Counted from the first letter of the stretch, positions 10,742 through 43,339 are shown. The stretch is DNA of 43,369 bases from an uncultured virus (IMG/VR IMGVR_UViG_3300032134_000001) (IMGVR_UViG_3300032134_000001); one strand, 5' to 3'. A program made the numbers and translations. Notes: generated by a model from the letters alone, not told the origin.

Positions 10742-11157
10742 GGCATCTCCGTAGGGGCCAGGAACCCCTCCACGAGCTGCTCCATCGGGCTGAGCGTCTC
10801 GTCGACGACGTAGGTGCGCCCGTAGATCCAGGCGTGCTCGATGTTGGCCTTCCGAGGATGGTCGATCACCTCCACGTCCCAGTAGGGGTCCAGGTGCTCG
10901 TCGTTCCAGTGCTGGATGTCGTTGACCCGATGGGAGGTGCGAACCCGCACAAGCGCTTCTCCTTGGATCTCGCAGTAGTCATGGACATCCAGCAGGTAGC
11001 CGGTCATCTCGACCACCAGAAGGAAGCGCCCCTCGTAGAGTTCAGCCTCCGCCACCGCTCGACTCTCTGCCTCCGCCTCCGTCCTCACTGTGATGTCGCG
11101 AGGGTTCCAGACCTCGGCCTCTGCTCTGGCCTGCACCAGCAGTGCGCGAGCTGTCAC
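10738..11157 (-). CDS. hypothetical protein, C-terminal SPMEQLV tag
   Basis: GTGA overlap, GGAGG SD. Confidence 0.8.
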   Translation of the reverse strand: MTARALLVQARAEAEVWNPRDITVRTEAEAESRAVAEAELYEGRFLLVVEMTGYLLDVHDYCEIQGEALVRVRTSHRVNDIQHWNDEHLDPYWDVEVIDHPRKANIEHAWIYGRTYVVDETLSPMEQLVEGFLAPTEMP

Positions 11158-11639
11158 TCCTCCTCCTTCTCGTGTGCCCGTGCCAGCTTCTCCATGTCGG
11201 TCTCAGCGCGGGCCGTGTTGGCCCGGTGCCGCATCCCCCCGAAGTCGATGTGGCAGATGTTCACCTCGTGCCGGACACACCAGACCTGGAAGCCCATTCT
11301 TGTGTAGCTGACCTGCTGCCGGGCGTACTGCTTGGGCGAGGTGCCCTGCGGCATCTTCCCCGCCTTCCACTCCTCCAAGCACAGGCCGCAGTGGATGTAG
11401 GCGCTGCCCTCATCCCCGTTGCTGATCGCGTCCCACTCCGGCGCGTCGTACTCGGCCCACTGGCCGTCTTCACCGTAGATCGCGTGGCCCTGGTAGCCCT
11501 CCGGGTCATCGACCCTGTCATCCATGAACACCGCAGCAACGTCCAACTCTTCGGGGTCCTCGTCCGCCACAGCCAGGACCACATGGTAGCGCCCCAGCAG
11601 CGCACGCAGCTCCGCCATGAAGCGGTTTCGCTTCTCCAT
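11154..11639 (-). CDS. hypothetical phage protein
   Basis: HCGLC...G.QVWC.RH..N..HIDF; AAGGAG SD. Confidence 0.8.
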   Translation of the reverse strand: MEKRNRFMAELRALLGRYHVVLAVADEDPEELDVAAVFMDDRVDDPEGYQGHAIYGEDGQWAEYDAPEWDAISNGDEGSAYIHCGLCLEEWKAGKMPQGTSPKQYARQQVSYTRMGFQVWCVRHEVNICHIDFGGMRHRANTARAETDMEKLARAHEKEEE

Positions 11640-11652
11640 TCCTCTACTCCTT

Positions 11653-11668
11653 GGGGCTCCTCAGCCCC
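11653..11668 (-). repeat. GGGGCT-GAGG-AGCCCC hairpin, copy 3
   Basis: Repeat with stem extended to 6 bp, abutting AAGGAG. Confidence 0.8.
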
Positions 11669-11673
11669 GGTTG

Positions 11674-12054
11674 TCAGACGACCACGTCCCCTTCATCGAG
11701 GCCGAAGTCGTCCAGGTTCCAGTCGAGGTCACTCGCTTCCGTCGCGGCGACCATCATCGGATTCTCGTACTGAGCCTTGTTCAGCTCCCACCAGACGTAC
11801 CCCACGCCCAGTGCCATCGCCGTCAGGCCCCGCCCCGCGATCACCTGCATCGGACTTTCGATGGGCTCTTTCGAGAGCTTGGTGTAGAGCCGTGCCAAGG
11901 CCAAGGACGACAGCACCCCGCCCACGATGGCCACCGTGCCCAGAAGCTGGTTCGACGGGTCCATCAGCTTGGTGCCGATCCTCTTCTGCGACTCCACGAA
12001 GGCGTCCCAGCCCGGATTCGGGAGTGCAGTGCGGGATGTAGGGCGCTTTGCCAT
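11674..12054 (-). CDS. putative two-TM membrane protein
   Basis: Two hydrophobic segments (LLGTVAIVGGVLSSLALA; GLTAMALGVGYVWW), acidic tail. Confidence 0.65.
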   Translation of the reverse strand: MAKRPTSRTALPNPGWDAFVESQKRIGTKLMDPSNQLLGTVAIVGGVLSSLALARLYTKLSKEPIESPMQVIAGRGLTAMALGVGYVWWELNKAQYENPMMVAATEASDLDWNLDDFGLDEGDVVV

Positions 12055-12457
12055 AGGACGAGCTTATCGGGAAGTTCACCAACGCGGGCTTGCTGGTCGA
12101 CAAGCGGCCCGAGACCGTGTGCTGCATGTTCCATCGCTGCGGCGAGGTGCTGTAGAGAGACGCAAAGCGCAGGGTCTTCGCAAGCCGCCGCATCTCCTTC
12201 ATGGTCTCGTGGAGCTTCGACCACTCGCAGAACTGCTCGCTCTCGATGTCGAAGGGGACCTTCGCGTCCGGGTCCCCCACATCACGAACCAGAGCATCTA
12301 TGTCCACGTCAGCGGCCAGGGTCTCCATCGGGTACTCGCGGGCGACCCGTGCGAGCGCCTCCTCGACGAGCATCTGATCGGTCTGCCCCTCATGTCGCAT
12401 GGCGCGCTGGAAGAACGCGAGCAGCAGGGTCGCCTTGTGGACTTCAGAGGGCTTCAT
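11729..12457 (-). CDS. hypothetical protein with PolA-like TVSGRLSTSKPALVNFP motif; 3' part overlaps next gene
   Basis: ATG 12457 in ATGA overlap; protein-like sequence to about 12068, then runs out of frame through 11674-12054. Confidence 0.5.
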   Translation of the reverse strand: MKPSEVHKATLLLAFFQRAMRHEGQTDQMLVEEALARVAREYPMETLAADVDIDALVRDVGDPDAKVPFDIESEQFCEWSKLHETMKEMRRLAKTLRFASLYSTSPQRWNMQHTVSGRLSTSKPALVNFPISSSYGKAPYIPHCTPESGLGRLRGVAEEDRHQADGPVEPASGHGGHRGRGAVVLGLGTALHQALERAHRKSDAGDRGAGPDGDGTGRGVRLVGAEQGSVRESDDGRRDGSE

Positions 12458-15307: not shown

Positions 15308-16032
15308 GCGCTCTTCCCCTTGGGTTGGGACCACACGAAGCGGTCGATGGGCTTCAAGCCGCCTCCCTGCGACCCGGCCAGCAACTCCAGGACGCTCGGC
15401 ATGTCCCGAGCGGGAGTGTCGTCCGTGACACACAGGGCCCGGTCGCTCTCGTGATCCCCGAAGTAGGCGAAGAGCTTCAAGCGCCGAGGGAAGTTGACGA
15501 TGTCCGGTGCCAGCACCCACATGCCCTCCCTGTCCTCGAAGGCATCACCGGACAGAGGACGAGTCAACGGGTCTCGACCCTTGGGCATCGAGTCCTTGCG
15601 CCGCGAGGTCACCAGGTTGGGGACCATGCCCCCGTCCTTGAAGATGAACTTGCCGTCCTTCCAGTAGAACCAGGTGTACTCACCACCCACCCACCGCTGG
15701 CTCCCGCCGGACGAACGGGTATTCGCCACAATCAGTCCCCGATCACTCCCGATGGACATCGGAGAGAACTGGTTCACCCGTACCTTGGTAGTGACCGTGC
15801 TCCAGCCGTTGAGACTCGCTGCAACCATGTCGTTCGGGTAGTAACGCACGACCTCCGTGCCATGGAACTCGCAGGCGTAGACCGTCTCGTCCGTCCTCCA
15901 CTCTGGAGTCGGGCTCACCCGGCTGACGACCAGCCAAGTGTTCCCGCTCAGCTTCTTGCCCTGCTTCTTGCTCCGAGCCTTCTTGAACTCGTCGCGAGCC
16001 CAGAGCCAGGGCGCTGTCAAGATGAGACTCAT
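15304..16032 (-). CDS. hypothetical phage protein
   Basis: Start ATG 16032 (TGATG); GNT...FHGTEVV...NGW.T.TTK.R.N motif. Confidence 0.75.
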   Translation of the reverse strand: MSLILTAPWLWARDEFKKARSKKQGKKLSGNTWLVVSRVSPTPEWRTDETVYACEFHGTEVVRYYPNDMVAASLNGWSTVTTKVRVNQFSPMSIGSDRGLIVANTRSSGGSQRWVGGEYTWFYWKDGKFIFKDGGMVPNLVTSRRKDSMPKGRDPLTRPLSGDAFEDREGMWVLAPDIVNFPRRLKLFAYFGDHESDRALCVTDDTPARDMPSVLELLAGSQGGGLKPIDRFVWSQPKGKSA

Positions 16033-16798: not shown

Positions 16799-17290
16799 CT
16801 AATCAGGGTCATCCCAGACCAGCGCGCCGGTCTGGTTCGTAAGTCCTTCGCCGTCAAAGACGTAGCGCCAGCAGTCCCGGTCCTCACCGTAGAAGGTGAT
16901 GATCGCCCCCTCGGACACGAAGGGTGCCAGGACTTCCCAGAGCTGCTCGTCGTCGCCCCACTTCTCCCCCTCGAAGTAGTGGACCACCACGTCGCGGTGC
17001 TGATGGCCAAGACCAAGCTGCTCCAGGGGCGTCATCGCAGCTCCCTCTCCACTGCTGTAGCGCCACGAAGTCAGCGCAGCAGAGAGGTTGCTGGCCTCCA
17101 GCGCCTCGATGCACGTTGCCGTGGAAACCCAAGAGAAGCTGCGGGCAGGGTCGATGTCCTTGGTGAAGGTCCCCCCGCTTCCGTGCTCCTGTACCGAGAG
17201 CATGAGTTCCTTCAGAGCTGCGACAGCTCCGGGCACCTTGGCACCCCGAATCACCACACCCTCGACCGTGACTTCGACGTGGTAACCCAC
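16799..17290 (-). CDS. conserved phage hypothetical protein, internal TPLEQLG tag
   Basis: MGY...WR...F.GEK.GDD...LAPFV..G..I...GED...WR..F motifs; GGAG SD. Confidence 0.8.
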   Translation of the reverse strand: MGYHVEVTVEGVVIRGAKVPGAVAALKELMLSVQEHGSGGTFTKDIDPARSFSWVSTATCIEALEASNLSAALTSWRYSSGEGAAMTPLEQLGLGHQHRDVVVHYFEGEKWGDDEQLWEVLAPFVSEGAIITFYGEDRDCWRYVFDGEGLTNQTGALVWDDPD

Positions 17291-17539: not shown

Positions 17540-18364
17540 TCATTCCTCGTTCTGTGTTGAGTCGTCTTCTGCTTGCACCACACCGGCCAGCAGCTCCATA
17601 GGTCCTTGAGTGAGCTTGTCCCGAAGCACCTGCTTGAGTTCCAGCTCAGCCAGACTCCGCGCAGCCTCGTCTGCCTTCACGCCGTAGCGTGACGCAGCCT
17701 CTTGCGAAGCCTTCAGCTCTGCTGCTGCTGCTTCCAGGTCACCGTGTAGGGTGGGAGCCAAAGTCGTGAGTTCCGTCTGGAAGTCCGTGAGCATCGAGAT
17801 GACAACGCCCAGGTCTTCTGCCATGTGATTGAGGGCCTCTTCACCTGTCTGGAGACCCCCTTCCACATCCCCACCCAGGAAGTCCTCGCTCTCGTACCAC
17901 CAGCGGCGCAAGTAGAGCAGGGCAGTCATCGCCACGGCATAGGCTGCACCGTGGTCGCCTGCCGGTAGGGTGAAGGGAGGAAGGGGGTCGCCCCCCGCCC
18001 ACTCGACGACGTGGTAGTCCTCGGGGTCCATCCGCATCGGCATCCAGGTGACGAAGCCCGGAGGGGCCTTGTCCCCCTCCACCCGGCCTCCGGCCTCGCT
18101 GTCCACCAGCATGTGACGCAAGAACTCGTGGATGTTCGCAGGGGTGACCGGGAACCCCGCCTCCGCTCCGCCTGCGGGGTTGAACCTTGGCAGAGAGGTC
18201 TTGCCCTGCTTGCGCATCATCTTCTTGTTGCTCCTCGCTTTCAGCAGGTTCTTCTTGCTCCTCGCTTGTCGCTTCGTGGCCCTCGCTGCCTGCCGCTGCG
18301 TCACTACTCCCGTTCCCGAGCCGAGCCCCAGCGCGTTCAGCAGGTTCTTCTTGCTGGTCGTCAC
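17540..18364 (-). CDS. hypothetical protein, basic N-terminus, coiled C-terminus, GPMELLA tag
   Basis: GTGA overlap. Confidence 0.75.
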   Translation of the reverse strand: MTTSKKNLLNALGLGSGTGVVTQRQAARATKRQARSKKNLLKARSNKKMMRKQGKTSLPRFNPAGGAEAGFPVTPANIHEFLRHMLVDSEAGGRVEGDKAPPGFVTWMPMRMDPEDYHVVEWAGGDPLPPFTLPAGDHGAAYAVAMTALLYLRRWWYESEDFLGGDVEGGLQTGEEALNHMAEDLGVVISMLTDFQTELTTLAPTLHGDLEAAAAELKASQEAASRYGVKADEAARSLAELELKQVLRDKLTQGPMELLAGVVQAEDDSTQNEE

Positions 18365-19953: not shown

Positions 19954-20292
19954 TCATCGGTCCTGTTCGAGCTGACGCTTCCGCTCGTCGAGTTCGCAAG
20001 CCAACGCCGCCAGCTCAGTGGACCGCGGGTCCTGCAAGCGTATGGCCCACTGCAGGACGTTGTCGTAGTCACCAGATCGCATCTCCTCCCCCACCTTCAC
20101 CAAGGCGCGGTCGGACCAGCCCTTCTTCTTCAGGGCTCGCTGCACGCGGGCGATGATCGAGTTGGCGTTGCCGTCCTCTCCCACCAGCCCGAACACTCCG
20201 GGTCCGTGCCGCTTGAGCGAGTCCTCGATGATGAAGACCTCCGAAAGCTCTTCCATTGGCGTGAGTGGGTCCTCGTTGCGTTCGCGGCTCAT
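19954..20292 (-). CDS. conserved small phage protein, N-terminal TPMEELS tag
   Basis: Start ATG 20292 (ATGA); LVGEDGNA...V..AL...EM.SGDY motif. Confidence 0.8.
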   Translation of the reverse strand: MSRERNEDPLTPMEELSEVFIIEDSLKRHGPGVFGLVGEDGNANSIIARVQRALKKKGWSDRALVKVGEEMRSGDYDNVLQWAIRLQDPRSTELAALACELDERKRQLEQDR

Positions 20293-21173
20293 CCTTTCTG
20301 CTCCTGTGCAAGCTGCTCCTCGCAGCGTTTGTCGTACTCTTCTGCCAGCTCTCGAAGCATGTCTCCGGGGCTGGTGTGAAGCTGGTCCTCTCCGACCTGT
20401 CCGCCCTTTGCGAGGACTCGCTGCCGCTGTTCCTCGCTCTTCACCCAGAAGTCGTAGTACTCCTCCGCTTTCGCGTTGATCGTCCAACGCTTCCAGCGCA
20501 TCCCGTTGTGAGCACCCCCCGTGAGGTAAGTATCCAGCAGTCGCCGCAGCACCTCTGCCGGAAGGGACTTCTCGCGCTTGGTCTGGACGTTGCGCTCGAT
20601 CCGAACATGCTGAGTCGCGTGCTCGGTGACGTAGACACGGCAGAAGCTCAGGAGCTTCGGCCGCGAGCCCACCATGGTCCGGCGCCGGTTGCAGACCTGA
20701 ACCCCGGCCCGGCAGAGCAAGACGTAGAGCAGCTGGGCCTCGGCAGCGTGCGGCATGAAGCGGGTTCCCGGTGCCGCGGCGGCAAGAGCTTCGAGGGGGG
20801 TCAGCATGTCGTCGAGCCCCTTCGGGCTGAGCACTCGGAGCTTGCCCCGGTCTTCAGCCTCGTAGGCTCGATTCCCCTTTGGCTTGGGCGAGGTGTACCA
20901 GGGCCCCTTCACCTCGATGCGGTAGGGTGCTGTGTTGCGTCCACTCTGCAACTGCCGGTTGTCCATGATGGACGCGTAGGGTGGGGCGCCCCAGTACTCC
21001 AGGTTCACAGGCAGGCGATCCCGGTTGAAGGCGAAGACCAGCTCGTCATCGGCCCAGCTCGGGACGAAGTAGGCGGGCTTCCGGCCCTTCGCGGCCTGGT
21101 AGGCCGCTTCGGCCAGAGTCTCCAGGTCCGGCGTCGAGTAGCGCGTGTAGTTGTCTCCAGTGAATCGCTTCAT
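20289..21173 (-). CDS. NxTxYSTxDL family paralogue 1
   Basis: NYTRYSTPDL; internal TPLEALA. Confidence 0.8.
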   Translation of the reverse strand: MKRFTGDNYTRYSTPDLETLAEAAYQAAKGRKPAYFVPSWADDELVFAFNRDRLPVNLEYWGAPPYASIMDNRQLQSGRNTAPYRIEVKGPWYTSPKPKGNRAYEAEDRGKLRVLSPKGLDDMLTPLEALAAAAPGTRFMPHAAEAQLLYVLLCRAGVQVCNRRRTMVGSRPKLLSFCRVYVTEHATQHVRIERNVQTKREKSLPAEVLRRLLDTYLTGGAHNGMRWKRWTINAKAEEYYDFWVKSEEQRQRVLAKGGQVGEDQLHTSPGDMLRELAEEYDKRCEEQLAQEQKG

Positions 21174-22632: not shown

Positions 22633-23458
22633 CCTCGGCTTTGATGTGTGCCGGACCCTCGTCCGTCTCCACAGTCCAGTTGCACCGGGCTGCCACTGCG
22701 GCAGCCAGGGGCGCGAAGTGCTGTCCCTTGAAGGAGTACCCCCCGCCGTCGACCCCGCAGAGCCGGTACTCGTTGTCCTCTCGCCAGTCGCCCTTCCCGC
22801 CGCAGTAGGTCGCGACGGTGAAGCCAGCGTCCTTCAGCTCCTGGTCCGTGATGAAGTCGTCTGGCAGCCAGCACCACGAGTTGGCCCACGGGAAGCCGTG
22901 CTGCTGCTCCTGCATGGACTCGTGGTCCTTCTCGTTGGCTGCCTGGACCGCAGAATCGCGGTCGTTCTCGTACCAGCCCCACACAGATTCCCCCTCGGGC
23001 TCTGGAAGCTCGATCATGTGCTCGCCTGCCCTCTCGACGTACTCCTCGTTGACGTAGTGGTCGTCCTTCAGGACCAGCCACTTGCGCTCCTCGCGCTCGA
23101 ACAGCTCGGGCTCTTCCTCTACTTCTGCCCCGTCCTGGCGTGCCAGAGCCTCCAGGGGGCAGCACACGGGGACCTCGTCGGGCTCCTTGCCCTCCCAGAA
23201 GGGGTACTCCTCCCCGCAGTCGTGGCAGACGTAGACCACGAGGTCCAGGTCCACGACCTTGTAGCGGTCCTCGGGCTGGACCTGCCAGCGCTCGAAGGCT
23301 TCTGCGCTGGACGTGTCGAGCAGCCCCAGGGGGAAGCTCGGCATGTTCCGGTTCATGAACTCGTTGACCCACTCTGCGAAGGCGTCGTCCTTGAAGTTGC
23401 AGCGGTCAGGGACGAGGTCCGCGAGCGTGACAGTTCGGATGTCTTCCATGATGTTCAC
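22625..23458 (-). CDS. highly acidic phage protein with Zn ribbon, CPLEALA tag
   Basis: CHDC; G.DG.GY.F...H..PL motif; GTGA overlap. Confidence 0.8.
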   Translation of the reverse strand: MNIMEDIRTVTLADLVPDRCNFKDDAFAEWVNEFMNRNMPSFPLGLLDTSSAEAFERWQVQPEDRYKVVDLDLVVYVCHDCGEEYPFWEGKEPDEVPVCCPLEALARQDGAEVEEEPELFEREERKWLVLKDDHYVNEEYVERAGEHMIELPEPEGESVWGWYENDRDSAVQAANEKDHESMQEQQHGFPWANSWCWLPDDFITDQELKDAGFTVATYCGGKGDWREDNEYRLCGVDGGGYSFKGQHFAPLAAAVAARCNWTVETDEGPAHIKAEDE

Positions 23459-23721
23459 GTCTCATCCTCTGGTAGCGGAACGGCAGCGAGCCGCTCCATG
23501 GGTGTTGGTTTGGGGAAGTGTTGTCTTGTCTTGGGCCAGACTTCTCCGTCTGTGCAGGAAGCCAGGTGCTCACACTTGGGCTCCGCGAAGCGGTAGAGGT
23601 TGGCGTCTTTGCCGGACCACGACCTGGCCCACTTCCGCCAGTGGCAGTAGGCATCAACGTCGAAGTCGTGCTCATGCACAGCGATGGAGGACGCCTCGAA
23701 GGCGACGTAGAGGTACTTCAC
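23455..23721 (-). CDS. small protein, C-terminal TPMERLA tag
   Basis: GTG 23721 in GTGA overlap. Confidence 0.7.
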   Translation of the reverse strand: MKYLYVAFEASSIAVHEHDFDVDAYCHWRKWARSWSGKDANLYRFAEPKCEHLASCTDGEVWPKTRQHFPKPTPMERLAAVPLPEDET

Positions 23722-24158
23722 TCCGGCTCGCCACAGTCGGCCAGCAGCTCCAGCGGACCCTTTCTCATCTCCTCGTCGACCATCTTGTCGGTGCGGAGGA
23801 AGTCCCGGACCAGCGACACGTCGCTCTCGTCCGGCTCCCCGTCGGAGTCGAAGCCGATGACGAAGCCTGTCTCCGAGCCGGTGAAGGCTTCGGAGAGGAC
23901 GCCTTTCCAGGTGCAGAAGTTGGACGGGCCGTAGTCGCTGCCGCCTTCCTGCCACCCTGTGCAGGGGAAGCCGGTCTGCGCCCACTCCTCCAGAAAGTCC
24001 ACGCCTCCGTAGTTCATGCCGTCGCCGCTGAACGTCCAGACGGGGCCGTCCTTCTCGCTCGGGGTCTCGAAGTCGTAGTTCCCGAGCACCGCCCGCCCGT
24101 CCTCAGACTGGGCATCCACGGCACGGACGTAGACAGTGAAGTAGCAACGGTCACCCAC
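23718..24158 (-). CDS. hypothetical protein, C-terminal GPLELLA tag
   Basis: Coding frame in chain. Confidence 0.8.
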   Translation of the reverse strand: MGDRCYFTVYVRAVDAQSEDGRAVLGNYDFETPSEKDGPVWTFSGDGMNYGGVDFLEEWAQTGFPCTGWQEGGSDYGPSNFCTWKGVLSEAFTGSETGFVIGFDSDGEPDESDVSLVRDFLRTDKMVDEEMRKGPLELLADCGEPE

Positions 24159-24489: not shown

Positions 24490-24796
24490 CGTTCAGCTCC
24501 TTGCCCACTTCTGCGAGCTGTTCCAGGGGAGTCAGCGGCGGGTCTGCCTCACCCCGCCAGGCCCCGTTCTCGTCGTACTGCCCGTCGATGCTGATGACGA
24601 TGCGACTCCAGCCCTCGTAGGCCCCGCTCGGGTCGTTCTCGTTGTCGTAGGGCTCGACCAGCTCTCGCGTGTAGGAGAGCTGGAAGCGAAGCGCCTCGAT
24701 GATGGCGTCGATGGGGTCTCCCGACGCTGACACGATGGTCTTCTGCTCGTGGTAGCCACGGGCGCTGGTGGACTCGATGATGAACTCGCGGGGCAT
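24479..24796 (-). CDS. hypothetical protein, C-terminal TPLEQLA tag
   Basis: ATG 24796 in TGATG overlap. Confidence 0.75.
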   Translation of the reverse strand: MPREFIIESTSARGYHEQKTIVSASGDPIDAIIEALRFQLSYTRELVEPYDNENDPSGAYEGWSRIVISIDGQYDENGAWRGEADPPLTPLEQLAEVGKELNDGA

Positions 24797-31298: not shown

Positions 31299-31958
31299 CT
31301 ATTGGCCGTTTCTCTTCAGCTTCGCGGCGACACGGAGAACAGCCCCCATGCCTTCCTTCTGTGCTCTCAGGGCGGCGAGAAGCTCCTTCTCGTCCGCCCC
31401 CAAGAGGTCCTCAACTGCTTCCAGCAGGGTGATCTTCTTCCCGATGTGCGCGATGGTCGGGCCCATCCTCAGTCCAGTGCTCACGGCCGCTCCGACTGCC
31501 TTGCGGACCTTCTTGGCCTTGACCCTCCGCGCCTGCTCGTCCTTGTCTTCCACCAGGTCCGGCTCTTCCCGGATGCGGATGGAGAAAGCAGAAGCATCGA
31601 ACTCCTCCCCATAGACCCCAAAGAGCCGACCAAGCACCTCCGCCACCTCCGCTACCACCTGGGATGGAAGCCTTGGGTTGGCCTGCATCGCCAGCAGCTC
31701 CAGGGGGGAGGCACTCAGCCTGTCCGGCTTCTTGATGCGGAGGGCCCGAGCCCCACGCTCCGGGTCGACAGCGCAGTCCCGCCGGACGTTGAGATGAGCC
31801 GCCTGCCGCTGTCCCTGCCAGTACACGACGACCATCTCTGTCGGTATCTTGGAGCGACGGCGCCTCCTCGTAGGGATCAACAGAGCAGCCTCGTGGGATG
31901 CGGTGATGATCGCCTGCAGGTCCTCGGTCGAGTAGACCGTGTAGTTGCGAATCTTCAC
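31299..31958 (-). CDS. NxTxYSTxDL family paralogue 4
   Basis: NYTVYSTEDL; internal SPLELLA. Confidence 0.8.
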   Translation of the reverse strand: MKIRNYTVYSTEDLQAIITASHEAALLIPTRRRRRSKIPTEMVVVYWQGQRQAAHLNVRRDCAVDPERGARALRIKKPDRLSASPLELLAMQANPRLPSQVVAEVAEVLGRLFGVYGEEFDASAFSIRIREEPDLVEDKDEQARRVKAKKVRKAVGAAVSTGLRMGPTIAHIGKKITLLEAVEDLLGADEKELLAALRAQKEGMGAVLRVAAKLKRNGQ

Positions 31959-32278
31959 TCTTCTCCTCCAGCAATCGCCAGGGCTTCCAGTGGACTCACC
32001 TGCTCGACATCCATGTCCATGAACGAGGACAGCTCCATGAATCCGCCCAGGGAGTAGCCGAGCATCATGTTGAACTCGGCATAGGCCCGCTGGAGATCAG
32101 CGCTCGGCGGCCCCAGACGGTTGGTCTGGTACGCCACCGCGACAACCTGGAGGTCCAGCACGCCGTGATCTACCAGGAAGCGCACGATGGGGTTCTCGAT
32201 GAAGCGAGTCGTCCCCTGCTCGTCCGTCACTGTCGGGTAGAGCTTGCCGCCCACCCGGACATAGCCAGAGTTGCTCAC
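31955..32278 (-). CDS. conserved small phage protein, C-terminal SPLEALA tag
   Basis: D..G..RF..N.IV..L.D...GYSL.GF.ELS motif. Confidence 0.8.
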   Translation of the reverse strand: MSNSGYVRVGGKLYPTVTDEQGTTRFIENPIVRFLVDHGVLDLQVVAVAYQTNRLGPPSADLQRAYAEFNMMLGYSLGGFMELSSFMDMDVEQVSPLEALAIAGGEE

Positions 32279-33057: not shown

Positions 33058-33416
33058 TGTGCGGCTCCTGCCAGCTGTTCCAGCGGTGTGAGGGGTTCCT
33101 GTCCCAGACATGCCGGGGGGAGGAGGTAGATCTTGCCGTTGTCGGCCTGGACGAGCACCACGTCAGTGTTGAAGCCGATCGCCGTGCCCGTGAACTTGGG
33201 GTTCTGCCAGCGGGTCGGGTCATCCACGTTGACGTTCTGGCCGCTGGGGATGACCAGCTTCTCTCGCCGCCCGTTCACCTTCCTGTAGAAGGTCTCTTGC
33301 CCGGAGTCAGGGCCGAAGCTGCCAAAGGTCATGGGAGCCCACGAGGCCGTGCGCCAGAAGACCCGGACCTGGACAGCACGGGGGAGGCCCTGGTAAGGCG
33401 CCAGAGCCTTGCTCAT
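33054..33416 (-). CDS. hypothetical protein, C-terminal TPLEQLA tag
   Basis: ATGA overlap. Confidence 0.75.
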   Translation of the reverse strand: MSKALAPYQGLPRAVQVRVFWRTASWAPMTFGSFGPDSGQETFYRKVNGRREKLVIPSGQNVNVDDPTRWQNPKFTGTAIGFNTDVVLVQADNGKIYLLPPACLGQEPLTPLEQLAGAAQ

Positions 33417-34562: not shown

Positions 34563-35042
34563 TCAGTGGAAGCACACGCAGCCGGTGTTGGCTGCAAGGT
34601 TGAAGGCCGACGCCAACGCGCCGTAGAGACCAGAGCCACCCTCGGGGTGGTCAGGCTTGAAGTCTCGGGCCAGCACGGCGCACACCTCAGGCCCCAAGAC
34701 CCCCTCGCAGTCGGAGAAGTTGATCAGCTCGTAGAACGGGTACAGCCGACCCTCCGCGAGCTGCTCTGTCGGGGTCCACAGTGTCATGGCCCACTCCTTC
34801 AGCCTCGCCCGCCATCGGCCGTAGCTGCTGTAGCTGCCTGCCCGGAGCCCGATGCCAACGGTGTCCGCCGCCCAGTAGTGTCCCGTCTCGATCCCAGGAG
34901 CCCGCGTCGGGAAGTCGGGGTTGGCATAGACGCGGACCCAGTTGTTGTAGTCGTCAGGCTCTGCGTCCTCGCCGCTACCTGCCGGTGGCGTCCAGCGTCG
35001 AGAGAAGTCCACGGAGCCGTAGGCGGTGATGTCCAGGCCCAT
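34563..35042 (-). CDS. conserved phage hypothetical protein, internal TPTEQLA
   Basis: MGLDITAY...RAGSYS.Y..WR...PF.ELINFSDCEG motifs. Confidence 0.8.
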   Translation of the reverse strand: MGLDITAYGSVDFSRRWTPPAGSGEDAEPDDYNNWVRVYANPDFPTRAPGIETGHYWAADTVGIGLRAGSYSSYGRWRARLKEWAMTLWTPTEQLAEGRLYPFYELINFSDCEGVLGPEVCAVLARDFKPDHPEGGSGLYGALASAFNLAANTGCVCFH

Positions 35043-35624
35043 CTACTCGTCCTCGTCGTCGTCTTCGTCTTCCCAAGCGAAGGCCGCGTGCCACTCAGAC
35101 ATGGCCCAGATCTCATGCTCCGAGCCCTCACAGATGCCGCCGTCGACCTGCTCACCGCCGTGGAAGGTGATGAGCGCCCCCCAGGCCGGCTGCTCCTCGA
35201 TGCCGTACCAGGTGAAGGTGCAGGTCGGGAAGCGCTCCACGAGAGCCTGCAGGACGGGCAGGGGAGGGCTCCACGCCGTCTGGAAGGTGTACTCGATCTC
35301 TCGGGTCGGGCTCTCTGCGTGGGCCTCCGCCAGCGCCTCCAGTGGACTGCCCTGACCCGGCGGTGTGCCGATGTCATAGGCGTTCCACTTCGTGCCCCAG
35401 GTGGCGCAGTTCCAGGAGTACCAATCCGAGTGGCCGTACTTGGCCTTGAGGCGATCAGTCTCTTCGCCTGGCTCTGAAGGGGCACCCCGACCTACCAACT
35501 CCGCAGGCATGGCAATGAGCTTGCTGAAGTCGAAGCAGCTCTCGCCCTGCATCAGCGTGATGAGGTCTGAGATGACCTCTCGGGGCCCGAGGATGACGAG
35601 GCGATGGTGACAATGATTGGGCAT
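35043..35624 (-). CDS. DUF1281/YubB-like ferredoxin-fold protein, internal SPLEALA
   Basis: MPN.C...L, FDF..LI.MP, WY.W....WGTKWN, F.TAWSPP motifs. Confidence 0.75.
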   Translation of the reverse strand: MPNHCHHRLVILGPREVISDLITLMQGESCFDFSKLIAMPAELVGRGAPSEPGEETDRLKAKYGHSDWYSWNCATWGTKWNAYDIGTPPGQGSPLEALAEAHAESPTREIEYTFQTAWSPPLPVLQALVERFPTCTFTWYGIEEQPAWGALITFHGGEQVDGGICEGSEHEIWAMSEWHAAFAWEDEDDDEDE

Positions 35625-36091
35625 CAGGAATCCGGGGTGTGGGCGGTTGCAAGCTGCTCCAGCGGGCTCAGCTCAGGGAAGTAGGGGGTCTCGACTCGAC
35701 CGGAGCAGTGCTTCGGGATGGCGACCCAGAAAACATCGCTGTTCGTGACCTGGAGCTGGTCGCACTCCGTCCGGCCGAGCTTGACCGTCAAGCCATCCAG
35801 CTCGTCCGTCGCTGTGTTGCGGTCGTAGGGAAAGGGCAGCTCCGCCCACTCCCCGTGCTCCAGCGCCTCCTCCAGCCACTCCTCCCACGCCTCGGGAATG
35901 TCGTCGAGGTAGTCAGGAGTCGCGTCCCAGACCGACAAGGTGTAGAAGCCGTCCACAGTGTCCTTGAGGTCCTTCGTGAAGGCCCGCAGAGCAGCGATTC
36001 GAGTCAGCAAGTCCGCCGTCACCTCGACGATGGCGTAGTCGCAACCGTCGTAGTGTTCACTGGCGTGGCTGGTTCGGCAGATGAGGTTCAC
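35624..36091 (-). CDS. acidic hypothetical protein, C-terminal SPLEQLA tag
   Basis: GTGA overlap, GGAGG SD. Confidence 0.8.
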   Translation of the reverse strand: MNLICRTSHASEHYDGCDYAIVEVTADLLTRIAALRAFTKDLKDTVDGFYTLSVWDATPDYLDDIPEAWEEWLEEALEHGEWAELPFPYDRNTATDELDGLTVKLGRTECDQLQVTNSDVFWVAIPKHCSGRVETPYFPELSPLEQLATAHTPDS

Positions 36092-36960
36092 GAGGTCTCC
36101 TCCAAGGGGGGAGAGGCAGCCAGGGCAAGCTGCTCCAGGGGGGTTCGGTTGGGGACGGGGGCAAAGGCACTGATGAGCGCCGCCCCCACGATGGTCGGGT
36201 CGACACCGAAGAGCTTCTCCATGGCCCAGACGGCCACGTTGGAGTCAGCCACCTCGACAGGCGCCTGGACCGTCTTGGTGTCCCAGACGTTCGGCTCATG
36301 CCGGAGGATGAGCAGCATGAGAGGTCGGGTGCTGCCGTGCAGGTGGTCAGCAGTGGCCTTGCCCTCTGCAACAGCCGACTCTGTGCCGTAGTAGCCCCAG
36401 CAGGACTCCAGCTCCTCCCCGTCTGCGTTCTCGACGATGTAGCCCCAGACATCACCGTTGGCCCACTGCTCGTAGGACTCGGTGAGGCTGTCTCGAATCA
36501 GCACTACGTCCCGCTCCGGGTGAGCCAGAGCATCCAGCGGGCTGTCCGGGGCCTTCACGAAGACCCAGCCGTCCGGGTCGCGGCGGCGGGTGTCATCCAG
36601 GTCCATGATGCTGATGGTGAAGCTGCCTGGACCGTGGACATTCCCGCACCAGAAGGGCCAGACGGTGTAGCCCTTGGCGTGTTCTTCCTGCCACGCCTCG
36701 TAGAGGTCGTAGGCTTCACTCTCACCATCCGAGGGCGCCGTGGGGATGTCGCTTCCGTACTCGCCCCACTTACCCTCGCCCCACTCCAGGAACGACTCCG
36801 GGTCAGGGACGTCCTTGATGTCCCGGCCGAAGCGATAGTTCCGCTGGTTGCAAGTGAGGAAGACCTCGTCCTCTCCCCAGTCTGGCTCTTCCGGGCCCTC
36901 GTCTTGGACGATGCGGAGGGTGAAGCCCTTGTACACCTCGCGCTCAGTCTCGTAGCTCAT
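36088..36960 (-). CDS. acidic phage protein with two tags (SPLDALA, TPLEQLA)
   Basis: Y.QW..GDV.GY.VE...ESCWGYYG motif. Confidence 0.8.
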   Translation of the reverse strand: MSYETEREVYKGFTLRIVQDEGPEEPDWGEDEVFLTCNQRNYRFGRDIKDVPDPESFLEWGEGKWGEYGSDIPTAPSDGESEAYDLYEAWQEEHAKGYTVWPFWCGNVHGPGSFTISIMDLDDTRRRDPDGWVFVKAPDSPLDALAHPERDVVLIRDSLTESYEQWANGDVWGYIVENADGEELESCWGYYGTESAVAEGKATADHLHGSTRPLMLLILRHEPNVWDTKTVQAPVEVADSNVAVWAMEKLFGVDPTIVGAALISAFAPVPNRTPLEQLALAASPPLEETS

Positions 36961-38081: not shown

Positions 38082-38338
38082 GCCTCGGCCCAGTCGTTCG
38101 CCACGTCAGCAAGCCGCTCCATGGGCGTCTCCTGCTCGATGTAGCCGATCATGTCGTCGAGCACCTGGCTACGGTGAACACCTCGGCGAAGCACAGCCCC
38201 TCCACGAGTGATCAGCTCGTAGCTGTGTCGCCCCGGTGTCCTCAGCCGTCGGATGGTGAAGCGCCCCTCGGTGTAGTGCTGCATCCCATCGAGTGCCTCG
38301 TTGGCCGCCAGCCAGAAGGCGCGGCGGTTCGGCCTCAC
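38078..38338 (-). CDS. small protein, C-terminal TPMERLA tag
   Basis: GTG 38338 in GTGA overlap. Confidence 0.7.
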   Translation of the reverse strand: MRPNRRAFWLAANEALDGMQHYTEGRFTIRRLRTPGRHSYELITRGGAVLRRGVHRSQVLDDMIGYIEQETPMERLADVANDWAEA

Positions 38339-39252: not shown

Positions 39253-39437
39253 CCGCCGCTCTGCTCGCGTGGGTCGCCGTCGTCTCGGCACGCCGCACAG
39301 GGCTGAGGCTCCCCGGCACTCATCTCCATCCCGCACCCTTCCGGCCAGAAGGCCATCAGGAGCAGTCCACTTGCGTCGGCGTTGTCCCCGTTCAGCAGCT
39401 TCATCAGCGGGGGGAGATTCAGGTGTTCGACGTTCAC
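39249..39437 (-). CDS. small hypothetical protein
   Basis: GTGA overlap upstream, ATGA downstream. Confidence 0.55.
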   Translation of the reverse strand: MNVEHLNLPPLMKLLNGDNADASGLLLMAFWPEGCGMEMSAGEPQPCAACRDDGDPREQSGG

Positions 39438-41036: not shown

Positions 41037-41677
41037 TAGTTGTCGAACCAGAAGACAGCCCGCACGTCGGCGTGAGACAAGCTGTGGGTCTTGGCCACAT
41101 CGGCCATCGCGTTCCGCAGTGATCGGATGCGCTTCTCGGTGAAAGAGCCGTCCTTGATGTGCTCCTGGAGTTCCCGCAGCGAGTACCAGTGTGGGGTGTG
41201 CCAGTCGGGCCCCCAGTAGTAGACCTGACCTCCCCGCTCAGCTGTCGGGTCGCCTGCCTGGTGCCACCGATCCGAATCTTGCCAGCCCTCCGCGAAGAGC
41301 TGCCAGCTGATGTCGTCGGGGACGTGGCGAGGGGGGATGGGGGGCTCAAAGTCGGAGGCGGCCCGCACGCCAGCCAGCTCTCTGAAGGCAGCGTAGTTCC
41401 GCCCGAAGGCCCACGAGTTGGCCAGGATCGGGATGCCAGGTTCCGCATCGGCACAACGAGCCAGTAGGGCCAAGGCCCGCCCTTCCAGGCGCTCCTCGTC
41501 GCGGGCCTCCGACTCCAGATACAGCCCCCAGTCCTCCCAGTCCATCTCCCTCGCGTGGTTGTAGGTCCCGTTCGCAAGGTATTGCGGCCCGCTCTTGCCG
41601 CTCAGGGGCGGGTCGACCGGAACCCAGTCCCCTGCCGCACGCTTTCGCTCGACGTAGAGGTGAATGTCACAGCTCAT
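41036..41677 (-). CDS. conserved phage hypothetical protein
   Basis: M.CDIH.YVE...RNY..F..LAGVR...H...W..L.EL...R.VFWFDN motifs. Confidence 0.8.
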   Translation of the reverse strand: MSCDIHLYVERKRAAGDWVPVDPPLSGKSGPQYLANGTYNHAREMDWEDWGLYLESEARDEERLEGRALALLARCADAEPGIPILANSWAFGRNYAAFRELAGVRAASDFEPPIPPRHVPDDISWQLFAEGWQDSDRWHQAGDPTAERGGQVYYWGPDWHTPHWYSLRELQEHIKDGSFTEKRIRSLRNAMADVAKTHSLSHADVRAVFWFDN

Positions 41678-41680
41678 TCT

Positions 41681-42169
41681 TCAGCTCCCCATACTCAGGT
41701 GGATGTCCAGGACCAGCCCGCCCTGAGCGGCGGCAAGCTGTTCTGTTGGCGTGGCTGCCACGAGGACGGCCTCCAGGTAGATGTGATGGTGGTCTCCGGT
41801 GCAGCGGATCTGCCGCTCGGCCTCGACCACCAAGTCTTCCCAGGTGGGATTCATGAGGACCTCTCCGACGTACTCCTCGCCGCCCTCCTGAATCCAGACG
41901 CCGCTTCCCTTCGAGACCACGCGGTAGCGACCTTCGAGGACGGGACCGCGCTTCCAGGTGACCGTCCAGGTCTCGCCGTAGGTCTCGCCCATCTGACCGG
42001 GCTCATCCACGGTGTCGTAGAAGCTGGCGCTCACGAAGACCGAAGACTGCTCCCCCATCTCAGCTCCCATCACCCGAACGACGTGCTCATCGAAGTGAGC
42101 ATCCTTCGCGTCGCAGCAGACAACGGCTCCAGCCACACGGCAGAGCCGTCGCTGTTCCTGCATGTTCAC
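41681..42169 (-). CDS. hypothetical protein, TPTEQLA near C-terminus
   Basis: NPTW.DL...I..TGD.HHI.LE...MGS motif. Confidence 0.75.
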   Translation of the reverse strand: MNMQEQRRLCRVAGAVVCCDAKDAHFDEHVVRVMGAEMGEQSSVFVSASFYDTVDEPGQMGETYGETWTVTWKRGPVLEGRYRVVSKGSGVWIQEGGEEYVGEVLMNPTWEDLVVEAERQIRCTGDHHHIYLEAVLVAATPTEQLAAAQGGLVLDIHLSMGS

Positions 42170-42798
42170 GAGATCACCTTCGTGTGGCTGATGCGAGCCT
42201 CATGCCGGTCGCTCAACTCATCGACCTCGCGGCGAGCCTCCAGGTAGTCGGCATCCTCCTTCGTAAGGGTCTGCTGAGCTGGTGCTGGTGCCCCCCGCAT
42301 GACCTTGCCCGTCACCGTGAGGTAGAGGGGGCTGTCGCTGTCGTGCCAGCCCAGCTTGGTGTGCGACCGCTTGCCCCAGCCCCGGATCAAGGGGTGGCTC
42401 TTGTCGCCTTGTCGCTGCATGTGAGAGTGCCGGATGAAGGGCGAGTCGTCGTCCATGAGCGAAGCGCAGATGCCGTCCATCACATCGTCCGGGGAGCCGT
42501 AGAAGGGCCCGAAGTGGTGGTTCTTCTTGAGCTTGGCCGTAGCCTGCCACCCGTTGGCGATCTGGACATGAACCCGCAGCTCCAGCCGGTCGCTGTCATC
42601 GAGCAGGTCGAGGTCCCGCTTGAGCTGCAACAGGGCCTGCTCGGGGTGGGCGAAGAGCTTCACCTCCAGCTCGACCTCACCTGGGGCGGTTGTCGGCCCA
42701 GGAAGCTGCTTCCTGCCCGCGCGAGCTGCAACAGCTCCAGCCACAAGACCGGCGATACCGCAGCCCAACCCGATGGCGATGCTGATGGGGTCGATCAT
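42166..42798 (-). CDS. N-terminally anchored membrane protein
   Basis: ATG 42798 (ATGA); ISIAIGLGCGIAGLVAGAVAA. Confidence 0.75.
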   Translation of the reverse strand: MIDPISIAIGLGCGIAGLVAGAVAARAGRKQLPGPTTAPGEVELEVKLFAHPEQALLQLKRDLDLLDDSDRLELRVHVQIANGWQATAKLKKNHHFGPFYGSPDDVMDGICASLMDDDSPFIRHSHMQRQGDKSHPLIRGWGKRSHTKLGWHDSDSPLYLTVTGKVMRGAPAPAQQTLTKEDADYLEARREVDELSDRHEARISHTKVIS

Positions 42799-43037
42799 TC
42801 TTCCTGCTCCGTAGGTAGGGTCATGCCCAAGCCAGCGAGTCGGATGAAGACCTCCAACTCGGTCGGGCGAGGGCCGTAGCAACTCATCTTGTGGGGCCCC
42901 GTGGTGAGGTTGGGGCAGTGAGAGCACCACGGACCGTCAGGCCACTGCGGGTGGGTCTCCTTGCGCTCCTTGGCATCCCGTTCACTCTCTGCCCGCAGCT
43001 CTGCGAAGAGCTTGCGGCGAGCCTCACGGTCGATCAC
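42795..43037 (-). CDS. small protein with CxxC...H...C motif
   Basis: GTGA overlap. Confidence 0.7.
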   Translation of the reverse strand: MIDREARRKLFAELRAESERDAKERKETHPQWPDGPWCSHCPNLTTGPHKMSCYGPRPTELEVFIRLAGLGMTLPTEQEE

Positions 43038-43339
43038 GACGCGGCCAAAGCCAGGGCTTCCAGCGGTGTCGGGAGGCTGACGTGACGCTCCTTGAGGGCG
43101 TCGATCTCTCGCTCCAGGCGGGCGATCTCCGTCTTCATGTTTGTCGTCAGCTCTGCCTTCGTTGACTTGATGAGGGCGCGGAGGAGGTCTTGGGCGATAA
43201 CCACCAACTCAGGGGCCTGAGGAACAGACTTGCGGATGCCCCCCACGGCCTTGCGGAGCAGAGTGAGCCGGTTGATCCCCAGGTTCGCGGCGTCGTAGTA
43301 GCCCTTCTGCCAGAGCTTCTCTGGCGACAGGTAGCCCAT
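43034..43339 (-). CDS. small coiled-coil protein, C-terminal TPLEALA tag
   Basis: ATG start, GC3-rich frame. Confidence 0.75.
   Translation of the reverse strand: MGYLSPEKLWQKGYYDAANLGINRLTLLRKAVGGIRKSVPQAPELVVIAQDLLRALIKSTKAELTTNMKTEIARLEREIDALKERHVSLPTPLEALALAAS

What the first reader, a model, noticed from the sequence alone, without database searches (positions are those of the whole stretch)
10771..43069. A shared 7-aa tag, [ST]P[LM]E[QAL]LA, on about 24 mostly unrelated proteins: candidate undescribed docking, packaging or processing system
Seen directly (lowest plus-strand coordinate of each 21-nt motif): SPMEQLV 10771, YPMETLA 12314, SVLELLA 15376, TPLEQLG 17012, GPMELLA 17585, TPMEELS 20242, TPLEALA 20781, CPLEALA 23141, TPMERLA 23485, GPLELLA 23739, TPLEQLA 24512, SDLEALA 26729, SPLEALA 28783, NPLEALA 29796, SPLELLA 31689, SPLEALA 31976, TPLEQLA 33069, TPTEQLA 34755, SPLEALA 35328, SPLEQLA 35648, TPLEQLA 36124, SPDALA-type SPLDALA 36523, TPMERLA 38108, TPTEQLA 41732, TPLEALA 43049. 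All are in the coding frame. Codons vary synonymously (CCC/CCG/CCA/CCT, GAG/GAA, CTG/CTC/CTT) and many substitutions are conservative (S/T, L/M, E/D), so selection appears to act on the peptide. About 13 copies lie within roughly 30 aa of the C-terminus and one is N-terminal. None was seen left of 10.7 kb. Apart from four paralogues, the carriers share no other visible similarity. Inference: an N-capped amphipathic helix acting as a common address label. It could load proteins into the virion for co-injection (compare the T4 capsid-targeting sequence), be read by a phage protease or adaptor, or recruit proteins to one hub or compartment.
Basis: partly seen in the sequence, partly recalled or inferred. 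Interest (0 to 1): 0.93.

Follow-up and report, generated by a model that had tools for sequence, protein, structure and literature searches.

The report
Shared helix tag on phage proteins
About 25 otherwise unrelated small proteins of a large, uncultured phage-like element carry the same seven-residue helix-starting peptide on their tails, linkers or loops; it looks like an undescribed address label read by one partner that is still unknown.

Summary
All 25 listed sites exist, all on the minus strand and in the coding frame. P[LM]E.LA occurs 17 times against 0.05 in 2000 residue shuffles. A relaxed pattern occurs 22 times against 0.12. There are no hits in plus-strand frames or left of 10.7 kb. 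High-GC control loci give about 1 hit per 43 kb. Third codon positions vary freely and Ser uses both codon families, so selection acts on the peptide. I found one extra copy at 11181-11201.

In four carrier families, close relatives from other metagenomic contigs keep the tag at the same place. Distant phage homologues lack it. AlphaFold models start a short helix exactly at the Pro in 3 of 3 modelled tags.

My reading is a clade-specific, portable docking peptide for one common receptor. No receptor was identified. The most likely specific use, at roughly 30%, is loading accessory proteins into the virion. Cleavage-site, degron, secretion-signal and DNA-level readings are weaker.

Earlier notes of this scan describe comparable shared tags with different motifs in other phage genomes, but none with this motif.

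The parts
10771..10791 (-). tag SPMEQLV, 10 aa before the stop of ORF 10741-11157
12314..12334 (-). tag YPMETLA, internal in ORF 11732-12712 (gene model uncertain here)
15376..15396 (-). tag SVLELLA, 23 aa before the stop of ORF 15307-16257
17012..17032 (-). tag TPLEQLG, internal, just before the phrog_38862-like C-domain of ORF 16802-17290
17585..17605 (-). tag GPMELLA, 14 aa before the stop of ORF 17543-18364
20242..20262 (-). tag TPMEELS, N-terminal (about 10 codons after an ATG) in the phrog_1933-like ORF ending at 19957
20781..20801 (-). tag TPLEALA between the N- and C-domains of paralogue 20292-21173
23141..23161 (-). tag CPLEALA after the zinc-ribbon-like N-domain of ORF 22628-23458
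23485..23505 (-). tag TPMERLA, 9 aa before the stop of the ORF ending at 23458
23739..23759 (-). tag GPLELLA, 6 aa before the stop of ORF 23721-24158
24512..24532 (-). tag TPLEQLA, 10 aa before the stop of the ORF ending at 24482
26729..26749 (-). tag SDLEALA between the domains of paralogue 26273-27049; its homologues carry SPMDALA, SPEELLA and GPMEQLA
28783..28803 (-). tag SPLEALA, internal in ORF 28582-29244
29796..29816 (-). tag NPLEALA between the domains of paralogue 29334-30107
31689..31709 (-). tag SPLELLA between the domains of paralogue 31302-31958
31976..31996 (-). tag SPLEALA, 6 aa before the stop of ORF 31958-32278
33069..33089 (-). tag TPLEQLA, 4 aa before the stop of ORF 33057-33416
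34755..34775 (-). tag TPTEQLA, internal in ORF 34566-35042
35328..35348 (-). tag SPLEALA in the segment just before the ferredoxin-like domain of the DUF1281-like ORF 35046-35624
35648..35668 (-). tag SPLEQLA, 7 aa before the stop of ORF 35627-36091; kept in a recognisable form in all 6 family members
36124..36144 (-). tag TPLEQLA, 11 aa before the stop of ORF 36091-36960; present in the 8 closest of 16 family members; modelled as helix 274-281
36523..36543 (-). internal tag SPLDALA of ORF 36091-36960; kept in recognisable, partly degenerate form in 16 of 16 clade members and absent in 20 of 20 distant phage homologues; modelled as helix 141-146
38108..38128 (-). tag TPMERLA, 9 aa before the stop of ORF 38081-38548
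41732..41752 (-). tag TPTEQLA in a loop before the last conserved strand of ORF 41684-42169; present in the 9 clade members aligned (one degenerate), with the loop shorter and untagged in most distant homologues
43049..43069 (-). tag TPLEALA, 4 aa before the stop of the ORF ending at 43037 (ORF runs off the window)

Best explanation
The tag is a portable short linear motif. It has a helix N-cap residue (S/T, sometimes G/N), then Pro (Asp in some relatives), Leu/Met, Glu, any residue, Leu, Ala. It folds into a helix of one and a half to two turns. The Leu/Met, Leu and Ala fall on one face and the Glu is invariant.

A lineage of large uncultured phage-like elements has grafted this motif onto C-terminal tails (14 copies), linkers between domains, surface loops and one N-terminus. 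The carriers are about 25 unrelated accessory proteins in one 33-kb one-strand gene block.

Inferred mechanism: every copy plugs into the same groove of a single receptor protein, so a changing set of accessory proteins is gathered on one machine.

Which machine is not shown. My preferred specific reading, at about 0.3, is cargo loading. In that reading the receptor is a capsid, scaffold or portal component, and the tagged proteins are packed into the virion and delivered with the DNA. This would be the C-terminal or internal counterpart of the T4 capsid-targeting sequence on polymorphic internal proteins.

Shown: enrichment, selection at the peptide level, helix propensity, clade-specific conservation, and gain by insertion. 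Inferred: binding, the single receptor, and the purpose.
For: Enrichment is 17 against 0.05 and 22 against 0.12 in shuffles, and is confined to the coding strand and to the block right of 10.7 kb. High-GC controls give about 1 hit per 43 kb.

Codons point to peptide selection. Pro uses CCG 8, CCC 9, CCA 5 and CCT 1. Glu uses GAG 15 and GAA 9. Leu at position 6 uses CTG 13, CTT 8 and CTC 4. Ala uses four codons. Ser uses AGC, AGT and TCC.

The carriers are unrelated except for four paralogues.

Conservation in four families:
- A3: the internal tag is recognisable in 16 of 16 members and the C-terminal tag is present in the 8 closest. 20 of 20 distant IMG/VR homologues have no tag at that variable segment.
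- Paralogue family: three homologues on other contigs keep a tag-like peptide at 29-42% identity.
- A5: a recognisable tag in 6 of 6 members, while the tail after it varies.
- A6: all 9 clade members carry a tag-like peptide (one degenerate) in a loop that is about 6 residues shorter and untagged in most distant homologues.

In the AlphaFold models the helix begins at the Pro in 3 of 3 tags.

The four paralogues and the hypervariable block of small ORFs resemble, from recalled knowledge, the polymorphic T4 internal-protein locus, where unrelated ORFs share only the capsid-targeting sequence.
Against: No receptor was found. Nothing in the window is recognisably a capsid, scaffold, portal, protease or unfoldase.

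Only 43 kb of a contig of about 167 kb is visible, so tag distribution over the rest of the proteome is unknown.

The block looks like an early or accessory region. It holds DUF932-like, CbeA-like, DUF1281-like and SpoT-type HD proteins. That fits a cytoplasmic hub as well as packaging.

Known packaging tags are N-terminal and cleaved (recalled). These are mostly C-terminal or internal.

The modelled tags have moderate to good pLDDT (about 66-89) and may pack on their own domains rather than being free.

The Glu/Gly-rich residues after C-terminal tags largely coincide with the Shine-Dalgarno sequence of the next gene, which starts at an ATGA or GTGA overlap. They are therefore not evidence of a functional acidic tail.
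Confidence: 0.6

Rival explanations
1. The tag tethers its carriers to a host or phage AAA+ protease or to an adaptor of one. This could cause timed removal of early proteins. Alternatively the carriers could act as adaptors that deliver bound host targets to the protease, in the manner of the SspB tail.
For: Many copies sit in C-terminal tails, and several tails end in Ala-rich residues. The carriers look like early or accessory proteins. Earlier scan notes on other phages reached similar readings for different tags (untested here).
Against: The tag is 4-23 aa from the end, not at the extreme C-terminus, and about 10 copies are internal or in loops. It does not resemble the recalled ssrA, XB or Lon motifs. 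No protease or unfoldase is in the window.
Confidence: 0.15
2. The tag is a cleavage site for a phage maturation protease that cuts after the invariant Glu, as T4 and phiKZ-type head proteases do.
For: Glu is invariant (24 of 25) and is preceded by Leu or Met. Glu-specific prohead proteases are known (recalled).
Against: Pro occupies P3, where T4 needs Leu/Ile and phiKZ needs Ser/Ala/Gly (recalled consensus). In family A6 a cut would remove the last conserved strand. In A3 the internal tag lies inside a confidently modelled domain. The residues after Glu (x-Leu-Ala) are as conserved as those before it. No protease family was found in the window.
Confidence: 0.05
3. The element is a conjugative plasmid or ICE, the block is its leading region, and the tag is a type IV secretion translocation signal.
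For: There is a NikA-like hit at E 6.7e-6, 26.6 bits against a cut-off of 27. DUF932-like, CbeA-like and DUF1281-like genes are typical of leading regions (the association is recalled). Many copies are C-terminal.
Against: The NikA-like ORF is a lone plus-strand ribbon-helix-helix gene with no relaxase beside it. The nearest Atlas clusters of the 923-aa and 404-aa proteins are mostly viral. No plasmid DNA match was found. Internal and loop copies do not fit a C-terminal secretion signal.
Confidence: 0.05
4. The repeat acts at the DNA or RNA level, for example as a recombination junction for gene shuffling, a standby ribosome site containing GGAG, or a regulatory site. On this view the peptide is incidental.
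For: C-terminal copies lie 33-90 nt upstream of the next start codon. CTGGAG contains a Shine-Dalgarno-like GGAG. All copies are in one orientation.
Against: Third positions vary and Ser uses two codon families. 9 of 25 copies use GAA, which destroys the GGAG. About 10 copies are internal, far from any start. Relatives conserve the peptide. The tags use more rare synonymous codons than the genome: GAA 36% against 12.6% and CTT 32% against 8%. That is the opposite of nucleotide conservation.
Confidence: 0.03
5. There is no common partner. The peptide is a lineage-specific, very stable helix-cap module that marks domain ends. It was spread by gene fusion and overprinting and is kept for folding or solubility.
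For: It is a textbook capping box (N-cap S/T with Glu at N3; recalled rule). Internal copies sit at the end of an N-terminal domain followed by a linker, as expected after stop-codon loss.
Against: Folding needs would not fix Leu-x-x-Leu-Ala in 25 unrelated folds, and Leu at position 6 is 25 of 25. Folding needs would also not drive insertion into an existing loop or into a variable surface segment. Distant homologues fold without it.
Confidence: 0.1

Closest known systems
Capsid-targeting sequence (CTS) of phage T4 internal proteins and Alt, and the polymorphic internal-protein locus of T4-like phages (recalled knowledge; no paper read)
   Same: One short peptide is shared by otherwise unrelated small proteins encoded in a hypervariable block, with only the tag conserved. 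The tag is portable.
   Different: The CTS is N-terminal and is removed by the gp21 protease at Leu/Ile-x-Glu. Here 14 copies are C-terminal, about 10 are internal or in loops and only one is N-terminal. The sequences differ, and neither packaging nor cleavage is shown.
Encapsulin cargo-loading peptides (recalled)
   Same: A peptide of 7-10 residues, usually C-terminal, sits on unrelated cargo proteins and docks into a pocket of an HK97-fold shell protein.
   Different: The recalled consensus is a Gly-Ser-Leu-type extended peptide, not an N-capped helix. No shell protein is visible in the window.
Hub-binding motifs of bacterial and phage replication proteins: the beta-clamp motif QL[SD]LF, the SSB C-terminal tip, and the T4 gp45-binding tails (recalled)
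   Same: Short terminal or internal peptides on unrelated proteins all bind one groove of one hub.
   Different: The sequence has no Gln or aromatic residue. The number of carriers (about 25) and their nature (accessory ORFs, not replication enzymes) also differ.
ssrA tag and SspB XB tail recognised by ClpX (recalled)
   Same: A C-terminal address peptide is read by one machine. Some tails here are Ala-rich.
   Different: The tag is not at the extreme C-terminus, internal copies exist, and the motifs do not resemble each other.
Other shared tags noted by this scan in other phage genomes (notes e1-3505509, e1-5999306, e1-3084959, e1-5347349)
   Same: The same phenomenon: one short peptide at the termini or linkers of a dozen or more unrelated phage proteins, with the partner unknown.
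   Different: The motifs and genomes are different. I did not test those notes.

Membership tests
T4-type capsid-targeting sequence | Tag at the N-terminus of the carrier | tested here: not met
   1 of 26 copies is N-terminal, 14 lie within 23 aa of the stop and the rest are internal
T4-type capsid-targeting sequence | Tag ends in a Leu/Ile-x-Glu cleavage site for a gp21-type protease (recalled consensus) | tested here: not met
   The position two before Glu is Pro in 23 of 25 copies. No protease family was found in the window
T4-type capsid-targeting sequence | Carriers are present in the virion | not testable with these tools
   Needs virion mass spectrometry
Encapsulin cargo-loading peptide | C-terminal peptide after a flexible linker on unrelated cargo | tested here: inconclusive
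   14 of 26 copies are in C-terminal tails, but the others are internal or in loops
Encapsulin cargo-loading peptide | Gly-Ser-Leu-type consensus (recalled) and an HK97-fold shell partner | tested here: not met
   The tag consensus has no Gly-Ser-Leu. No capsid family was found in the window
Beta-clamp-binding motif | QL[SD]LF-like pentapeptide (recalled) | tested here: not met
   The column counts show no conserved Gln-Leu start and no aromatic residue
ssrA-like C-degron | Motif at the extreme C-terminus ending Leu-Ala-Ala (recalled) | tested here: not met
   The tags end 4-23 aa before the stop, and the tails vary in sequence and length
Type IV secretion translocation signal | C-terminal signal on proteins of an element that encodes a relaxase, coupling protein and T4SS | tested here: inconclusive
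   Only a sub-threshold NikA-like hit, with no relaxase or T4SS family in the window. The rest of the contig is unseen
Any catalogued domain or family (Pfam, PHROGs, NCBIfam) | A profile that covers the tag and is shared by the carriers | tested here: not met
   No family is shared by the carriers, and most have no hit
Short linear motif in the general sense | 3-10 residues, sits in tails, linkers or loops, gained and lost independently of the host fold, and conserved within a clade | tested here: met
Short linear motif in the general sense | Binds a defined partner domain | not testable with these tools
   No partner is known; needs pull-down or a full in-silico screen

The most novel reading that the evidence does not exclude
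A lineage of large phages uses a C-terminal or internal helical cargo-loading peptide, in the manner of encapsulins, to pack some 25 interchangeable accessory proteins into the capsid and inject them with the DNA. These proteins are probably anti-defence or host-takeover factors. This would be a modular pre-loaded arsenal with a single address code.
Probability: 0.25. Interest if true: 0.85.

Novelty: new variant of a known kind. Interest (0 to 1): 0.68.

Why it matters
If one receptor reads this tag, a seven-residue peptide defines a functional class for about 25 proteins that no database can currently annotate. That would give an experimental handle on them: tag-peptide pull-down, tag-GFP fusions and tag mutants.

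It would also show that phages use clade-specific short linear motifs grafted onto tails, linkers and loops to organise their accessory proteome. That principle is well known for eukaryotic viruses but barely documented for phages.

If the receptor is a capsid component, the tag would be a portable signal for loading foreign proteins into phage particles.

Tried and rejected
Receptor search:
- A three-chain prediction paired the tag tail of family A5 with the two large untagged proteins 7954-9165 and 18364-19944. It returned no verdict (score 0.00, controls not run). It counts neither for nor against binding.
- PDB sequence searches with three large untagged proteins found nothing useful at E <= 1.
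- A Foldseek search of the A3 model against the PDB gave no match at E <= 0.001.

Sister elements:
- No whole genome is held for this window.
- There was no megablast match in plasmids.
- IMG/VR gave no close relatives.
- The one genome-contig scan gave only distant homologues of an untagged protein.
- The one metagenome scan gave two short fragments, of which L062 is syntenic.
- A back-translated TPLEQLA pattern over IMG/VR found 16 loci, none enriched: 15 carry that one copy and one has a second, loose relaxed hit. Two of them, on contigs of about 180 kb at 65% GC, are unrelated to the window.

Literature:
- A string search for five tag variants found nothing relevant.
- Two topical searches found no description of such a tag. 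I saw only the listings and abstract starts and read no paper.

Other checks:
- There are no tRNAs and no Rfam families.
- The pI of tagged and untagged ORFs did not discriminate, partly because the ORF starts are uncertain.
- Dual coding with the downstream gene was rejected as a general explanation. Downstream genes start at ATGA or GTGA overlaps after the tag, and several alternative frames carry stops near the tag.

Full report
OBSERVATION

The window has 65% GC and nearly all its genes are on the minus strand. Each lies in an open frame. For 23 of 25 sites, the tag's frame has the highest third-position GC in the 150 nt upstream. The two exceptions are 20242, where coding starts about 10 codons upstream at an ATG so the tag is N-terminal, and 17585, which lies in a low-GC3 tail.

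Thirteen listed copies lie 4-23 aa before a stop, one is N-terminal and the others are internal.

A position-specific matrix built from the sites by coordinate recovered them. It added one more copy, TDMEKLA at 11181-11201, 8 aa before the stop of ORF 11157-11639. Its score is 11.2, and 0.47 hits at a score of 10 or more are expected per shuffled proteome. The matrix is circular for the 25 training sites.

STATISTICS

In my 67 minus-strand ORF models (14,536 aa):
- P[LM]E.LA occurs 17 times, against a mean of 0.05 (max 2) in 2000 within-protein shuffles.
- [ST]P[LM]E.LA occurs 12 times against 0.0075.
- A relaxed pattern occurs 22 times against 0.12 (max 3).

All hits are in the three minus frames and none in the plus frames. 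There are no hits in the 2800 aa left of 10741.

Controls in six frames:
- 143 unrelated loci (2.36 Mb) have at most 2 hits per 20 kb.
- The 22 loci with GC >= 0.60 (374 kb, including one sister fragment) hold 9 relaxed and 7 strict hits, about one per 43 kb.
- A DNA pattern coding TPLEQLA matches only 16 loci in the whole IMG/VR collection, and none of them is enriched: 15 carry that one copy and one has a second, loose relaxed hit.

The enrichment is therefore real, roughly 20-fold over high-GC background and more than 100-fold over composition.

PEPTIDE OR DNA?

Codon use at the tag:
- Pro: CCG 8, CCC 9, CCA 5, CCT 1.
- Glu: GAG 15, GAA 9.
- Leu at position 6: CTG 13, CTT 8, CTC 4.
- Ala: four codons.
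- Ser: AGC, AGT and TCC.
- Thr: all four codons.

First and second positions are fixed and third positions are free. The tags use more rare synonymous codons than the genes at large: GAA 36% against 12.6%, and CTT 32% against 8%. One cause is visible. After CAG, Leu is CTG in only 1 of 8 tags, which avoids CAGCTG. The window also lacks several hexamer palindromes entirely. Selection against recombination between 25 direct repeats is a further possible cause, but that is inference.

Downstream genes start at ATGA or GTGA overlaps after the tag, and several alternative frames carry stops near the tag. Dual coding is therefore not a general explanation.

The same call shows that the Glu/Gly-rich last residues of many tails coincide with the Shine-Dalgarno sequence of the next gene. 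The 'acidic tail' should not be read as part of the signal.

CARRIERS

All-against-all BLASTP at E < 0.01 links only the four paralogues: 20292-21173, 26273-27049, 29334-30107 and 31302-31958. There is one further pair, unrelated to the tag.

The paralogues share an N-domain, then the tag, then a helical C-domain.

Pfam, PHROGs and NCBIfam give no family common to the carriers. By my ORF models, some of which are uncertain because starts overlap, 25 of 55 ORFs right of 10741 are tagged.

RELATIVES

The element is rare. There is no close DNA or protein relative in plasmids, IMG/VR or the species genomes. Its own contig is about 167 kb.

Four carrier families could be followed into other metagenomic contigs.

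1. Family of 36091-36960 (16 members, 36-61% identity).
   - The internal tag is recognisable in all 16, though degenerate in the most distant members.
   - The C-terminal tag is present in the 8 closest and absent in the other 8.
   - In 20 of 20 distant IMG/VR homologues (30% identity or less), the internal site is a variable segment with no tag.
2. Paralogue family. Two database homologues and the fragment L062 carry SPMDALA, SPEELLA and GPMEQLA at the same place. L062 keeps the neighbouring gene too.
3. Family of 35627-36091. All 6 members (57-75% identity) keep a recognisable tag, while the residues after it differ in sequence and length.
4. Family of 41684-42169. All 9 clade members aligned carry a tag-like peptide, often with Asp in place of Pro and degenerate in one. 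It lies in a loop before the last conserved strand. In most of the 15 distant homologues aligned, out of 126 representatives found, the loop is about 6 residues shorter and untagged. Two of them show a partial resemblance.

Members of different families share contig lengths (6313, 5916 and 118,281 bp). This suggests they lie on the same sister contigs.

The tag is therefore a clade-specific module. It has been gained on tails, in a variable surface segment and by loop insertion, and it is then kept.

STRUCTURE

AlphaFold2 on the 16-sequence alignment gave mean pLDDT 85.5. Helices 141-146 and 274-281 begin exactly at the Pro that follows the N-cap Ser140 and Thr273.

The paralogue model is weaker (mean pLDDT 66.1). 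It puts helix 126-132 after Thr125.

The residues allowed at position 1 (S, T, G, N, and D in relatives), Pro or Asp next, and Glu at the third helix position form the classical capping box (recalled rule). Leu/Met, Leu and Ala then fall on one face of the helix.

Ser/Thr is not essential, since Gly recurs at that position. This argues against a modification site.

WHAT THE ELEMENT IS

The evidence is indirect:
- The nearest ESM Atlas clusters of the 923-aa protein are Uroviricota hypothetical proteins, score 0.92.
- The 404-aa protein 7954-9165 is DUF932-like by predicted structure, and its clusters are mostly viral.
- PHROG hits are frequent but all of unknown function.
- The 381-aa protein 30119-31261 has homologues at 33-41% identity in Pseudomonas, Bordetella, Burkholderia and Caulobacter phages. 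It also has homologues on large plasmids: about 25% identity on 64 Acinetobacter records and 41% over 75% of the query on one Salmonella record.
- Hexamer palindromes are strongly avoided.

I read it as a large phage. A plasmid or ICE is not excluded. The NikA-like hit is below threshold and has no relaxase beside it.

MECHANISM

The data fit a short helical docking motif read by one receptor. They do not identify the receptor.

- A cleavage site is unlikely. Pro occupies P3, the residues after Glu are equally conserved, and in two families a cut would fall inside the fold.
- A C-degron is unlikely as such, because the tag is never at the extreme end and is often internal. An adaptor-tether version remains possible.
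- A secretion signal does not fit the loop and linker copies.
- Among specific uses I favour virion cargo loading, at about 0.3. The only phage precedent I can recall for many unrelated small ORFs in a hypervariable block sharing nothing but a short tag is the T4 capsid-targeting sequence on polymorphic internal proteins. Encapsulins show that an HK97-fold shell can read a short C-terminal peptide.

Both comparisons rest on recalled knowledge. The membership tests for both families fail on position and consensus. The claim is therefore 'may work like', not 'is a member of'.

NOVELTY

- The literature string search for five tag variants found nothing relevant.
- Two topical searches found no description of such a tag. 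I saw only listings and abstract starts.
- No profile library covers it.
- Earlier notes of this scan report comparable shared tags with other motifs in other phage genomes. None has this motif or this DNA. I did not test those notes.

I class the finding as a new variant of a known kind, namely address or docking peptides. It has an unknown reader.

Noticed in passing
window 1-43369: Extreme avoidance of hexamer palindromes. Observed against expected: GAGCTC 0 vs 31.8, CTCGAG 0 vs 27.1, TCCGGA 0 vs 18.4, AAGCTT 0 vs 11.5, ATCGAT 0 vs 8.4, GCATGC 0 vs 8.3. This looks like restriction-site avoidance by a mobile element. Within the tags, CAG is followed by CTG in only 1 of 8 cases, which avoids CAGCTG.
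   Followed up: partly
window 9177-9188, 10093-10104, 11655-11666, 31276-31287 (minus strand): Four exact copies of GGCTGAGGAGCC, the core of a small GC hairpin. At least three lie in intergenic gaps a few bases upstream of the ribosome-binding site of genes starting at 9165, 11639 and 31261; the fourth lies just upstream of the ORF starting at 10080. With one mismatch allowed there are 5 matches, against 1.26 expected by chance. This may be an RNA processing, stability or regulatory element.
   Followed up: partly
window 16035-16769 (-): A SpoT/RelA-type HD hydrolase domain protein: HD_4 E 5.9e-6, TIGR00691 E 8e-12, phrog_990 E 3.8e-27. It may be a small alarmone hydrolase. It is untagged.
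   Followed up: no
window 13679-15520 (-): A 614-aa protein with a C-terminal PEP-utilising 'swivel' domain (PF00391, E 3.4e-7) and a strong match to phrog_11532, E 1.7e-52. It may be a phage-borne phosphotransfer enzyme of unknown substrate. It is untagged and has no PDB sequence match.
   Followed up: no
window 21942-22301 (-), 35046-35624 (-), 7954-9165 (-): A CbeA-type antitoxin-like protein (E 1.5e-10), a DUF1281/Api92-like protein (tagged just before its ferredoxin-like domain) and a DUF932-like protein (by Atlas structure, TM about 0.7). From recalled knowledge, this gene set is typical of plasmid leading regions and phage early regions.
   Followed up: no
window 39437-40741 (-): A 435-aa protein with two N-terminal zinc ribbons (RanBP-type hit, E 2.6e-4), one apparent transmembrane helix and a Cys-rich C-terminal part. 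It is untagged.
   Followed up: no
window 11729-12745 (-): The ORF carrying the YPMETLA tag overlaps ORF 11677-12054 in another frame. The GC3 trace supports its frame only for about 12049-12289. The gene model here is unclear: it could be a short gene, an overlap or a frame change.
   Followed up: no
window 4346-4477: An AT-rich gap between the start of the 923-aa gene (minus strand) and the lone plus-strand ribbon-helix-helix (NikA-like) gene. It is probably a divergent promoter region separating two minus-strand transcription units.
   Followed up: no
C-terminal tails of tagged ORFs, e.g. 10741-10770, 31958-31975, 36091-36123: The Glu/Gly-rich residues after the tags are encoded by the Shine-Dalgarno sequences of the downstream genes, which start at ATGA or GTGA overlaps with the stop codon.
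   Followed up: yes
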